DNA from: Eledone cirrhosa
Lineage: Eukaryota
Direction of reading: 5' to 3'
Length of the DNA stretch: 64,000 nt
Assembly: GCA_964016885.1 (NCBI GenBank)
Contig: OZ024749.1
Coordinates: 5,828,001-5,892,000 of the forward strand
The notes under the pieces were generated by a model. The model was given only the letters and a program-made list of their open reading frames with translations. It was not told the origin of the DNA and did no database searches. This document shows, one piece after another, positions 8,299 through 62,221 of the stretch. The number at the start of each line of letters is the position of its first letter. Position 1 is the first letter of the stretch. The translations under genes were made by a program, and so were the position numbers.

Positions 8299-8346
8299 TG
8301 CTTACAACTGTTTCCTCCAAACCGAGGTTTGGATTTCTTCGGAGCA
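8299..8346 (-). ncRNA. Hammerhead-like motif with CCGAAGA core
   Basis: UGCU CCGAAGA AA UCCAAAC CUCG GUUUGGA G GAAAC AGUU GUA AGCA; stems I, II and III all pair. Confidence 0.65.
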
Positions 8347-9269
8347 ATTTATTAATGAATGGACAGTTATATGTAAACAATATGTATGTTATATGTAAAC
8401 AATATGTATGTTTTATGTATGTTATAAGTAAACAATATGTATGTTGTATGTTATATGTATGTTATATGTAAACAATATGTATGTTTTATGTATGTTATAT
8501 GTAAAAAATATGTATGTTTTATGTAAACAATATGTATGTTTTATGTAAACATTATGTATGTTATATGTAAACAATATGTATGTTATATGTAAACATTATG
8601 TATGTTATATGTAAACAATATGTATGTTTTATGTATGTTATAAGTAAACAATATGTATGTTGTATGTTATATGTATGTTTTATGTAAACTATAGTATGTT
8701 ATATGTAAACTATAGAATGTTATATGTAAACAATATGTATGTTTTATGTATGTTATAAGTAAACAATATGTATGTTGTATGTTATATGTATGTTTTATGT
8801 AAACCTTATGTATGTTATATGTAAACAATATGCATGTTATATGTATGTTTTATGTAAACTATAGTATGTTATATGTAAACTATAGAATGTTATATGTAAA
8901 CAATATGTATGTTTTATGTATGTTATAAGTAAACAATATGTATGTTGTATGTTATACATGATGTTATTATGTTATATGTAAACAATATGTATGTTATATG
9001 TAAATACATTGAGCTACTTAACTTACTGGTAATAAGGTAGTAATATATTACTGCCTACCACTATTTAGGGTTTGTATAAAAAAATATATATAACTGCAAA
9101 AGGTTTTTGTATTTACATAACCATAAATAGTATAATTAATACTAATAATTAATTAATACATAGATACAGATATATGGAATACATACATATAAACATACGT
9201 AGGTGCTGTTTTAAATAAACATGTTTTAACGGTCTATTCTCCAATTTTTTACTTTCCCACGTGCTTACG

Positions 9270-9425
9270 CTCTGCTAACTCTCTAGCCCACTAAATATTA
9301 ACACTTCGAATATTTAATACTGCCGGCACTAGTATCGAGCACCTTTGGCATACGCTACTTGGCAAATAACTATATGTATCACCTATCCTCCCCTTTTTTT
9401 TCTCTTTCTCGATACGTAAATACTG
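9270..9425. mobile_element. Solo terminal segment of the PLE seen at 36810-36950
   Basis: ctaaatattaacacttcgaatatttaatactgccggcactagtat..tcgatacgtaaata closely matches 36821-36947; ends in (TA)n. Confidence 0.7.
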
Positions 9426-9509
9426 TATATATATATATATATATATATATATATATATATATATATATATATATATATATACATACATATATACATACAT
9501 ATACACATA

Positions 9510-9952
9510 CATGAGAAATCTACAGATACTCCACCCTGATTACACCTTCAGATTTATGCCTGTTATTATTGGGGCACTGGGGTATGTTAGTAACTGCCTC
9601 AATACAAATCTTGAGAAGCTGGGCTTCACAGGAACAGAAAGAACACAACTAGTTAGGAAACTACAAGTACAATCCATTAATGGAACAGTAAAAATATGTA
9701 AAACATTCCAAATATTTTGCATTTAATAACTGCATATACACATGTACAGATACAAAGCATACACACATGCACACTTACAACTCAAAACATACACATCCAC
9801 ACATACAATAACATCCATATCTACACATGCATGCATACATATCTACCTAGTTGATGTTGTGTAAATTCCAATGAGAGAGTCTTGTATCTATGTTAGAAAC
9901 CGACTCTCTTTCTCTATTGGTAAAACTTTGTGAAATTATAAAACCAGAAGAA
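9510..9952 (+). mobile_element. 3' end of a restriction-like endonuclease (RLE) non-LTR element in an (ACAT)n tract
   Basis: LHPDYTFRFMPVIIGALGYVSNCLNTNLEKLGF..VQSINGTVKICKTF is a typical RLE C-terminus (PVIIGALG); 3' UTR; ACAT repeats on both sides. Confidence 0.7.
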
Positions 9953-10024
9953 CATACATACATACATACAGACAAACATACATACATACAAACATACATG
10001 CACACACATACATACATACATATA

Positions 10025-10225
10025 TACTCCACCCTGATTACACCTTCAAATTTATGCCTGTTATTATTGGGACACTGGGGTATGTTAGTAACTGCCTCAA
10101 TACAAATCTTGAGAAGCTGGGCTTCACAGGAACAGAAAGAACACAACTAGTTAGGAAACTACAAGTATAATCCATTAATGGAACAGTAAAAATATGTAAA
10201 ACATTCCAAACATTTTGCATTTAAT
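10025..10225 (+). mobile_element. Second near-identical copy of the RLE 3' fragment
   Basis: Direct repeat of 9527-9727 with a few substitutions including a stop. Confidence 0.8.
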
Positions 10226-10497
10226 ATACACATGTGTATATACACATGTGTATATATATATTTATATATGTATATGAATCAAAGGAGGTTATGCACAAGA
10301 CAAACACAACAGAAATATGAACACTCCCATCTCTTCAATCATCCACTGGAAATCACTGGAGTTATGCTACATTAAGGTTGATACTATACATTCCATTGCA
10401 CATTGGGATACAACAAAACAGGGAGACACAGGATATATATATATATATTCAAATATATATAAATATTTAATGTATAATAAACAATACAATGTAATTA

Positions 10498-10566
10498 CCT
10501 CATTACCAGAGGTTTCCCGAATAAGACGAATACGAAAAAACGTCCTCATTCGTTCGTCGGACAAGG
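10498..10566 (-). ncRNA. Hammerhead-like motif with CCGACGA core
   Basis: CCUUGU CCGACGA [A CGAAUGAGGACG..CGUCUUAUUCG G] GAAACC UCU GGUA AUGAGG; 6-bp stem I with GU pairs. Confidence 0.6.
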
Positions 10567-59889: not shown

Positions 59890-59960
59890 TATTTTATCTG
59901 ATGAAAACACAAATATTATTGCATGATGATATTTGTTTTTGAAATGCGCATAATAAAATA
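59890..59960 (+). ncRNA. Hammerhead ribozyme motif, right arm
   Basis: UAUUUUAU CUGAUGA [AAACACAAAUAUUAUU GCAU GAUGAUAUUUGUUUUU] GAAA UGCGCA UA AUAAAAUA. Confidence 0.8.
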
Positions 59961-60127
59961 CCTGGAACTCTTTTAACCATCTTTTGATCTTATATATTAT
60001 GTATACTCCAGTCCTACATACTGTAGAGTGCTTCTTATCCGATATCTGCATTGCTTTATTTTACTACAATAAAACTCACCTCCTACATATATATATATAT
60101 ATATGTATATACACACATATATATATA

Positions 60128-60775
60128 CTAGCAGAATGGCCCAGCTTTGCTTGGGATTTGCTCTAGGGTTCTTATATATTCTTATATGTTTATCATTATC
60201 GAGCTTCGTGAAATAGATACATTTGTTTATATTTTGTTATTGTGTATGCAAACATATCTGTACACGAATATATAATTATATATATATATATATATATATA
60301 TATATATATATATATATATATATATATATATGTATATATATATATATATGCTAAAATAACAGATTAAAGTTTAAGCAAAGAATCGCTGCTTTCATCCTTA
60401 ACGGGATCTTCTGAAACTAAAAAGTCAATCTGTGAACACAGAAGTAAATATTTTGAAAAACGTTACACACTATATATATATATACACACACTATATATAC
60501 ATATATACACACACACATATTACGACGTCATAATGTTGTAATTCCGACAGCCAGGCATACAGACAAATATTATAAGGCTGCAATGTTATATCTATGTATC
60601 TATCTTAAAAGAAAGACTAAGAATTATAAAGAGTGATCACTAAATCCCCTAATGCTCAAAACACTCAAAGGACCATAAGTACTATATGTGTAAAGTTTGA
60701 AAACAATCGGCTGGGTGGTTCTCGAGTTTTAGGGAGTCAGACAGACAGACATTCTCTGTTTTATATATACATAGA
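60128..60775 (-). mobile_element. Non-autonomous Helitron (Lep1-like layout)
   Basis: Minus strand begins TC, ends with hairpin (cccagc-ttt-gcttggg) then CTAG, between host A and T; (gaca)n near the 5' end. Confidence 0.7.
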
Positions 60776-61180
60776 TATGATATGACCAATTGATTAAATA
60801 GTTTGTTTCAGAAAGATGAGTTACCAAATTTAATGCAAGTCATGTGTATGGAATTGGGTAGACGGAAACTACGTGGAAGCCCATCAGATTGTCTGTACAT
60901 TTAATTCAAAAAATCAATTTTGTCATATGCATTATTATGCTGCTTCTGCCTGTGAATTCCATCAACAATTCTGTAATCATATTTCTAATGCAATACACTG
61001 TTTTTAAATTACTCAATGAAGAATTTGGGAAGATTATTACAACGGTATATGTCGAAATCCCAATCCAGGGCTTTCTCACACCTGTTGGAGTACCCTTCCT
61101 GGTTGCCATCCACTGCTACTTATCTCTGGCTATACTGATGTATTGTGTCAGATTGTCTCACCATTATACCTTTTGATGAC

Positions 61181-61341
61181 CTCCGTTTTGGATCTTCAAA
61201 ATATTTGTTATTAAATTAAATTCCTTTTTCATTATAACTCCTCCTGCATGCTTATCTTCCATTAATCAAAAATCAGCATGCAGGAGTTTTAATGAAAAAA
61301 TAGTTTAACCTAATAACAAATGTTTGAAGATCCAAAACAGA
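61181..61341. repeat. Inverted repeat, arms about 70 bp
   Basis: gttttggatcttcaaa..tttgttatta..ctcctgcatgct versus agcatgcaggag..taataacaaa..tttgaagatccaaaac. Confidence 0.85.
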
Positions 61342-61515
61342 GAAAGCAGGCTTTGCTAACATCAATTTTTCATATGTGTTATTAAGATCGTTTTTATATA
61401 CATACCAGCTGTGCTTTTCAGACCCTTTTTTATAATTTTATTTATATAACGTTATCTGTATAGAACATTTTCTAACATCCACACTTTTTTTCACCATATG
61501 ATACATGTATATATC

Positions 61516-61678
61516 CTCATCGTTTAACATCCATCTTTTACGCTAGCATGAGTTGGACGGGTTTATCCCACTTGAGGCAAGATTGGTCGGGTGACTGCGT
61601 CTCACTCGTACAGAACTGTTTCTAGCAGGTTTTCTACAGTGGGATGCCCTTCGTAACTCCAACCACATTTAGAGTGTG
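61516..61678 (-). mobile_element. RTE-type 3' UTR fragment
   Basis: catcgtttaacatcc..ggttttctacagtgggatgcccttcgtaactccaacc. Confidence 0.7.
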
Positions 61679-61816
61679 TATATATATATATATAGTAATA
61701 GTTATACTTATATATAGAAATATAAATAGGATAAGGGTAATATTGTATATTACTTGATTACCAGTAAAATAAGTAGCTCAAAGTAAAATATCAGATATAA
61801 TACAGAGCAGAAATAG

Positions 61817-62221
61817 AACATAAATAACAATCAAATTGGGTTTAAGGCATTTAATAGCTTACGGTCGTTTCATCCAGATATAAATCTGTATCCATCAGAG
61901 TATATAAAATGTTAAAACAAATAAATTCCTAATCATTAGGTAATAAAATATTATAATGAAATTTTTATTATAATATTTTATTACTATTTTTTCATTATAA
62001 TTGTTTAATTATAATATTCATTTGCCCCTGCTCCTTAATATATTGCAATTAACAATTATAATTAGTCTTCTGACATATAATGTATCCTGTTAAATGTTCT
62101 AATCATTAGGAATTTATTTGTTTTAACATTTTATATGCTCCAATGATTCCAGACCTATATCTGGATAAAACGATCGTAAGCAATTAAATGCCTTAAACAC
62201 AATTTGATTGTTATTTATGTT
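61817..62221. mobile_element. Foldback (arms about 120 bp) with decayed hammerheads at 61857-61901 (-) and 62136-62182 (+)
   Basis: ACU CUGAUGG AUACAGA..UCUGGAU GAAAC GACC GUA AGC and UGCU CCAAUGA UUCCAGA..UCUGGAU AAAAC GAUC GUA AGCA. Confidence 0.8.

What the first reader, a model, noticed from the sequence alone, without database searches (positions are those of the whole stretch)
8299..62182. A hammerhead lineage with a non-canonical CCGANGA core (U4 to C), suggested by CpG decay
Seen: 8299-8346 has CCGAAGA and 10498-10566 has CCGACGA with stems intact. In two separate foldbacks one arm reads CCAAUGA (about 31205 minus; 62140 plus) and the partner reads xUGAUG (31552; 61898). Inference: an ancestral CCGA gives CTGA or CCAA by one CpG deamination on either strand, whereas ancestral CTGA needs two changes, twice. 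The 8.3, 31 and 62 kb motifs also share the UGCU/AGCA stem I and UCCA..UGGA stem II. The active elements may therefore have used a variant catalytic core that strict CUGANGA searches miss. I cannot tell whether this variant is already catalogued.
Basis: partly seen in the sequence, partly recalled or inferred. Interest (0 to 1): 0.75.

Follow-up and report, generated by a model that had tools for sequence, protein, structure and literature searches.

The report
Retrotransposon hammerheads with a CCGA core
Thousands of copies of a jumping gene in this animal genome carry a hammerhead RNA motif with C instead of the usual U in its catalytic core, kept through a long-lived lineage, so this variant, known before mainly as a rare viroid mutant, likely still self-cuts; cutting has not been tested.

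Summary
The six motifs are minimal type I hammerheads in the pseudo-LTRs of Penelope-like retrotransposons with Hydra-clade protein motifs. In the 8.3 kb family, 3,858 exact copies include only 27 CTGA and 44 CCAA; 98 of the first 100 listed read CCGA. The 31 kb family is 56 CCGA of 66, with symmetric decay (4 CTGA, 4 CCAA). These two and the older, mixed 62 kb family form one clade; its sister clade keeps U4 (53 of 54). Stems II and III show compensatory changes, including pairs that only a dimer can form. Corrections: the 10.5 kb motif is a separate family in which a real CUGA subfamily also amplified. U4C itself is known (peach latent mosaic viroid; a CYGANGA search descriptor exists). None of 82 published PLE hammerhead rows I saw has C4, but Lünse 2017 was unreadable. 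A pile-up of 5' ends at the predicted cut appeared in one subfamily set (13 of 36) and weakly in the 10.5 kb family, but not in two others. Cleavage is untested. No earlier scan note on this turned up. Verdict: new variant of a known kind.

The parts
8247..8373 (-). 3' pseudo-LTR fragment of Penelope-like family A, between microsatellites
   Evidence: 96-97% identical to pLTR arms of ORF-bearing copies L061 and L063
8299..8346 (-). Minimal type I hammerhead, core CCGAAGA (C4 at 8341), predicted cut between 8303 and 8302; one extra A after the core
   Evidence: family tally
10462..10683 (-). 3' pseudo-LTR fragment of Penelope-like family B, young C4 subfamily
   Evidence: 96% identical to L141; inside the starred 31-row clade with 29 CCGA
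10498..10566 (-). Minimal type I hammerhead, core CCGACGA (C4 at 10559), long stem II, A.G at the base of stem II
31123..31253 (-). Inverted arm of family C foldback insertion; decayed hammerhead 31165-31215, core CCAATGA
   Evidence: family tally
31255..31803 (+). Sense arm of family C foldback; decayed hammerhead 31546-31596, core ATGATGA
   Evidence: arms 89% alike over 123 nt
61679..61939 (-). Inverted arm of family D foldback; decayed hammerhead, core CTGATGG from 61898
61954..62221 (+). Sense arm of family D foldback; decayed hammerhead 62134-62184, core CCAATGA, GAAA read as AAAA
   Evidence: family tally

Best explanation
These motifs are the pseudo-LTR hammerheads of Penelope-like retrotransposons with Hydra-clade protein motifs, and in one long-lived lineage, plus a young subfamily of a second family, the copied master elements carry C at core position 4, which likely still supports slow, dimer-dependent self-cleavage. 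Shown: element context, C4 as the amplified state, CpG decay giving CTGA and CCAA, clade structure, compensatory stem changes. Inferred: two hammerheads pair through their palindromic stem III strands and cut after N17, which in tandem copies would free the 5' end of the next unit's RNA. A slow ribozyme would suit the element, because the hammerhead lies about 225 nt before the 3' end and most inserted copies retain it uncut.
For: Family A: 3,858 exact matches with positions 4-5 free; 27 CTGA, 44 CCAA; 98 of the first 100 CCGA. Family C: 56 CCG, 4 CCA, 4 CTG, 2 CAG of 66. Wider pattern, first 100 of 3,840, hand count: stem-II TCCA type 41 CCG, 3 CTG, 1 CCA, 1 CAG; TCCT type 53 CTG, 1 CCG. Tree with positions 4-5 masked: a 51-row clade (99/98) holds 44 C4 rows and 7 T4 rows, all seven in old family D; the 14-row sister is all U4. 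Proteins next to family C-type motifs are only 54-77% identical to family A, and flanks outside the motif are 47-63% alike between the main A and C clusters, so C4 outlasted much divergence although it sits in a CpG. On 22 C4 motifs, 91% of cells pair and 11 cells change on both sides (1 of 500 shuffles as high); two of the three double-change pairs are inner stem III pairs that a monomer cannot form. Stem III strands self-pair over 8 bp in all five A, C and D examples folded. RT plus C-terminal GIY-YIG ORFs lie between inverted hammerheads. U4C lowers activity in vitro but keeps a viroid infectious (PMC3088659, passage). 5' ends fall exactly at the predicted cut in 13 of 36 truncated A1/A2 copies (3.8 expected, p about 4e-5) and 15 of 53 family B copies (8.0 expected, p about 0.01).
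Against: No cleavage assay and no RNA data. The junction signal did not replicate at +1 in subfamily A3 (2 of 35; 14 fall at -2, where a TA matches the (TA)n target) or in family C (4 of 22, 3.2 expected); in family B an AT palindrome at +1/+2 confounds it. The two-hammerhead fold was the predicted minimum-energy dimer in only 2 of 7 examples. Naiad PLEs proliferate without a canonical hammerhead (PMC8557442), so success of the lineage does not prove cutting. Covariation counts come from related sequences and are not independent events; the 22 rows were chosen for CCGA.
Confidence: 0.7

Rival explanations
1. C4 switched catalysis off, and the fold is kept for another job, such as recognition by the element's reverse transcriptase or pairing of two RNAs.
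For: U4C considerably decreases activity in vitro (PMC3088659). Published PLE hammerheads are already weak (PMC4209133). The cut-site pile-up failed in A3 and C. Naiads spread without canonical hammerheads.
Against: Every other catalytic position (C3, G5, A6, G8, A9, G12-A14, A15.1-U16.1, non-G at 17) is kept while N7, loop II and N17 vary. A non-catalytic role would not need to keep all of them. Several short foldback insertions have both arms ending at or next to the predicted scissile bond (L227/228, L238/239, L235, L240).
Confidence: 0.2
2. Position 4 is simply neutral (U or C work equally) in this hammerhead architecture, and C4 was fixed by drift. This differs from the best explanation only in predicting no rate change.
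For: Family B amplified both U4 and C4 masters with an otherwise identical ribozyme. The U4 sister clade has the same non-G-C base of stem II. A published descriptor already writes CYGANGA.
Against: C4 lies in a CpG that decays to U4 (27 and 44 of 3,858 young copies already hit), yet outside family D no amplified U4 subfamily appeared in the sampled TCCA clade. All 82 published PLE rows seen have U4, though they were found with CUGA-based searches.
Confidence: 0.3
3. CCGA is an artefact or scattered mutation of canonical CUGA copies.
For: Family D and the older part of family B contain many CTGA copies.
Against: More than 3,700 of 3,858 family A copies are neither CTGA nor CCAA; the 10 CTGA copies inspected are spread over several subfamilies, and one has a CCGA partner arm.
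Confidence: 0.01

Closest known systems
Minimal type I hammerheads of Penelope-like elements (Cervera and de la Pena 2014, PMC4209133; Lünse et al. 2017, not readable here)
   Same: Type I order, short stem I, long stem II, extra base after A9, short palindromic stem III, place in the pseudo-LTR, thousands of copies
   Different: All 56 representatives in Fig. S3 have U4 (CUGA or UUGA) and the consensus has G10.1-C11.1; here C4 is the family state and that pair is absent
Hammerheads of Hydra-clade PLEs (Craig et al. 2021, PMC8557442, File S2)
   Same: Host element motifs (RWK-like, DKT, CxCX5C, C-terminal GIY-YIG, (TA)n targets); extra base on both sides of stem II and a U-A first pair in many rows
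   Different: All 26 Hydra rows, including Hydra-1_oBim, read CTGA; the family A unit here is about 4.2 kb against under 3 kb in general
U4C variant of the peach latent mosaic viroid plus-strand hammerhead (Ambros and Flores 1998; seen only as cited in PMC3088659; the viroid's name is recalled)
   Same: The same core change, reported as lower in vitro activity but enough for infectivity
   Different: There a rare variant of a plant RNA pathogen; here the fixed state of a retrotransposon lineage with over 7,600 genomic copies and a dimer-type minimal fold

Membership tests
Canonical type I hammerhead (CUGANGA/GAAA, Rfam RF00163) | U at position 4 | tested here: not met
   C4 in families A and C and young family B
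Canonical type I hammerhead (CUGANGA/GAAA, Rfam RF00163) | C3, G5, A6, G8, A9, G12-A14, A15.1-U16.1, H17 | tested here: met
   Invariant or nearly so in alignment A1; the search patterns fixed most of these letters, so this shows presence in thousands of copies, not an unbiased rate
Canonical type I hammerhead (CUGANGA/GAAA, Rfam RF00163) | G10.1-C11.1 pair closing stem II | tested here: not met
   A.G, U-A, A-U or U.U followed by a U-A pair in A, C, D; A.G then C-G in B
Canonical type I hammerhead (CUGANGA/GAAA, Rfam RF00163) | Match to the Rfam model | tested here: not met
   No hammerhead hit to E 10 for A or C motifs; a canonical motif in the window also stayed under the cut-off, 14.6 of 34 bits
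PLE minimal hammerhead (dimer type) | Three stems in type I order with short palindromic stem III | tested here: met
   Pair counts and compensatory changes; stem III self-duplexes
PLE minimal hammerhead (dimer type) | Location in the pseudo-LTR of an RT plus GIY-YIG element | tested here: met
   L061-L064 for A; L120-L125, L132, L133 for B; L194, L195, L206 for C-type. No ORF was linked to family D in the loci fetched
PLE minimal hammerhead (dimer type) | Self-cleavage after N17 as a dimer | not testable with these tools
   Indirect junction test gave mixed results
Hydra clade of PLEs | RWK and DKT motifs, CxCX5C linker, C-terminal GIY-YIG with CxxC and CxH | tested here: met
   RWR, DKT in L063; CNCRANRTC, CNLC, CQH in L061; CSCRVKSEC in family B; criteria
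Hydra clade of PLEs | Insertion into (TA)n | tested here: met
   3' ends run into (TA)n in many loci; judged by eye, not counted
Hydra clade of PLEs | Placement in the Hydra clade of an RT tree | not tested
   No tree with reference PLE proteins was built

The most novel reading that the evidence does not exclude
C4 is a selected, tuned catalytic core: in Hydra-type hammerheads, whose stem II lacks G10.1-C11.1, the U4C change arose at least twice and is actively kept against CpG decay because it sets the cutting rate that lets most transcripts keep their 3' end. Short insertions that start exactly at the scissile bond are a genomic record of in vivo cleavage by a Penelope-element ribozyme, whose function is an open question.
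Probability: 0.25. Interest if true: 0.72.

Novelty: new variant of a known kind. Interest (0 to 1): 0.5.

Why it matters
U4 is treated as near-invariant in natural hammerheads, and PLE surveys used CUGANGA-based descriptors. Here over 7,600 genomic motifs escape those searches, so PLE hammerhead counts and 'no hammerhead' calls may be underestimates in other animals. Family B offers a natural matched pair (same ribozyme with U4 or C4, both amplified) for measuring what position 4 does. The role of PLE hammerheads is still unclear (PMC8557442), and truncated insertions starting at the cut site suggest a purely genomic test of in vivo cleavage.

Tried and rejected
Rfam scan of the whole window gave only microsatellite-driven miRNA hits in the 150 of 316 rows shown. 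Pfam found no family for six ORF pieces at a meaningful score. No RNA holder was listed among sequencing runs; four contig runs of unknown kind were laid on family A and listed no alternative letter at the core among the rows shown, but may be the assembly's own sample, so they are not used. A covariation of C4 with the extra base before GAAA (C-G in A and B) was rejected because family C has C4 with A. The ORF beside family C in L079 belongs to another element. The cut-site junction test was run on five sets and was positive at +1 in two, negative in two and too small in the U4 control (5 of 8 at -2 to +1). An upstream control in A1/A2 gave about 2 to 3 junctions per position, with up to 6 at -4 and at -10. 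Literature: ten searches found U4C only in PMC3088659 and CYGANGA only in PMC13481778. Lünse 2017, Ambros and Flores 1998 and Martick and Scott 2006 are not held, so a prior report of C4 in PLE hammerheads cannot be excluded. Earlier scan notes shown concerned other hammerhead types; only 8 notes per call were visible.

Full report
Observation. The window is AT-rich, microsatellite-laden animal DNA with CpG observed/expected 0.55; it lies in a 3.0 Gb assembly. Each reads, in type I order: stem I strand, core, one extra base, stem II hairpin, one extra base, GAAA, a 6-7 nt near-palindrome, UH, stem I strand. A loose CCGANGA hammerhead pattern has 7,633 genome matches against 11 for its reversed control.

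What carries them. [quoted passage not shown] The protein shows RWR, DKT, CxCX5C, CxxC and CxH, the marks given for Hydra-clade Penelope-like elements (PMC8557442 section 11). Named database relatives are from octopods at 34-42% identity; I did not determine the species. Family B (10.5 kb) has a related ORF, about 30-50% identical to family A in aligned pieces. Motifs of the 31 kb type sit beside ORFs 54-77% identical to family A. The window copies are short 3' fragments or foldbacks. In family A the hammerhead lies about 225 nt before the element's 3' end, and that tail precedes the ORF in L063.

With positions 4-5 free and the other 33 letters exact, family A has 3,858 matches; 98 of the first 100 are CCGA, 27 in all are CTGA and 44 CCAA. 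The exact pattern favours young copies. Ten CTGA copies inspected are spread over several subfamilies. Family C gives 56 CCG, 4 CCA, 4 CTG, 2 CAG of 66. So CCGA is the amplified state and the other two are CpG decay on either strand, as proposed. Family D (62 kb) is older and mixed: 6 CCG, 3 CCA, 8 CTG, 1 CTC of 18; the window's own pair (CCAA and CTGA) is best explained by a CCGA founder.

Family B has 954 matches; by hand count the first 100 hold about 67 CCG, 30 CTG, 2 CTA, 1 CCT (one row settled by refetching), while only 10 of 954 are CCAA. That asymmetry means a U4 master also amplified. A tree of 64 of 75 copies (11 dropped for over 20% divergence; core column not masked) shows a supported clade of 31 rows with 29 CCGA, holding the window copy, and an unresolved group of 33 rows with 24 T4. 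The root is unknown, so the direction of change in B is open.

Lineage. A wider pattern that leaves out most family A copies gives 3,840 matches. Among the first 100, stem II starting TCCA goes with CCG in 41 of 46 rows and stem II starting TCCT with CTG in 53 of 54 (hand count). A tree of 65 of 129 motifs (at most 4 per cluster, the ten CTGA-selected loci left out, positions 4-5 masked; two CTGA copies of the C type, L174 and L178, were not among the rows) splits these groups with 99/98 support. Within the TCCA clade 44 rows are C4 and the 7 T4 rows are all family D. Stem II was in the alignment and long branches meet at the root, so the split is not independent of the motif. Flanks outside the motif are 47-63% alike between the main A and C clusters. 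C4 has therefore lasted through many master elements although one common mutation would restore U4.

Selection on the fold. On 22 CCGA motifs chosen to span subfamilies, 91% of cells pair; 11 cells change on both sides (1 of 500 shuffles as high; slid controls 25-39% paired). Stem II swaps A-U for G-C. Stem III strands are CAATTG, CAGCTG, CGATCG, CAGTTG and CGATTG, whose inner pairs need a second molecule; they self-pair over 8 bp. The two-hammerhead fold was the minimum-energy dimer in 2 of 7 examples, and monomer folds were weak. These sequences are related, so the counts are not independent events.

Indirect test of cutting. If the ribozyme cuts, short insertions should start at +1 after N17. 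Hand counts of truncated copies, after dropping internal indels and unclear rows: A1/A2 13 of 36 at +1 (11 of 47 dropped; 3.8 expected; p about 4e-5); B 15 of 53 (14 of 67 dropped; 8.0 expected; p about 0.01); A3 2 of 35, with 14 at -2 (8 of 43 dropped); C 4 of 22 (5 of 27 dropped; 3.2 expected); U4 sister family 5 of 8 at -2 to +1. Several A1/A2 foldbacks have both arms ending at or next to +1, and three unlinked ones share a junction that fits snap-back from a cDNA ending at +1 (inference). The null model is crude, the first set suggested the test, and TA or AT microhomology with the target confounds -2 and +1. I count this as suggestive only.

Mechanism. Most likely the C4 motif is a working but slow hammerhead that needs a partner copy, as described for PLE hammerheads (PMC4209133 parts 1-2 and supplement parts 1-2 read; PMC6765202 passages). 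In tandem copies a cut would define the 5' end of the next unit's RNA; at the last pseudo-LTR a cut would remove the 3' tail, and most inserted copies are uncut there, so low activity may be favoured. Element context and C4 inheritance are shown; cleavage, rate and purpose are inferred.

Against the literature. U4C is known: PMC3088659 (passages and section 8) says it considerably lowers activity in vitro yet permits viroid infectivity, citing Ambros and Flores 1998, which I could not read. PMC13481778 (passages) searches with CYGANGA and reports C/T degeneracy there. In PLEs, all 56 rows of Cervera Fig. S3 and all 26 Hydra rows of Craig File S2 have U4, but both used CUGA-based descriptors. 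The missing G10.1-C11.1 pair and the extra bases are already common in the Hydra rows. PMC7229834 and PMC3376415 (passages) added nothing. Lünse 2017, the largest PLE hammerhead survey, is not held and might contain C4 families. Rfam does not detect these motifs.

Verdict. Real, and a new variant of a known kind: a known tolerated core change that has become the fixed state of a successful retrotransposon lineage. Interest 0.5.

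Noticed in passing
window 27656-27706 (-) and 57593-57636 (+): Canonical CUGAUGA hammerheads with G10.1-C11.1 (GUCC...GGAC); the first scores 14.6 bits on Rfam Hammerhead_1.
   Followed up: partly
window 18771-18833 (-), 21774-21830 (+), 41234-41295 (+), 59710-59776 (-), 59892-59958 (+): Another group of CUGA-core minimal hammerheads with AT-rich stem I and palindromic stem III strands TATATA or TGCGCA; the last two form a foldback.
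   Followed up: no
window 36345-36785 (-) and 55120-55515 (-): GIY-YIG endonuclease fragments of other Penelope-like families, 39% identical to family A.
   Followed up: partly
window 49730-51787 (+): 685-aa open frame of a non-LTR retrotransposon RT with a C-terminal CCHC and restriction-like nuclease region; R4/Dong-like by recalled motifs, not tested.
   Followed up: no
window 44128-45909 (-): Broken L1/Tx1-like reverse transcriptase in three frames pieces, in the most GC-rich part of the window; label recalled, not tested.
   Followed up: no
G000:C1:56975002-56984224 and C1:73178137-73185796: Family A hammerheads in tandem about 4.2 kb apart, likely full-length head-to-tail units, some mirrored by inverted units.
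   Followed up: no
L125 and L133: Single family B insertions whose two hammerheads differ at position 4 (CCGA and CTGA), from later decay or from two different templates.
   Followed up: partly
L227/L228, L238/L239, L336/L337: Short perfect palindromic insertions centred on the predicted cut site with a 2-6 nt AT spacer.
   Followed up: partly
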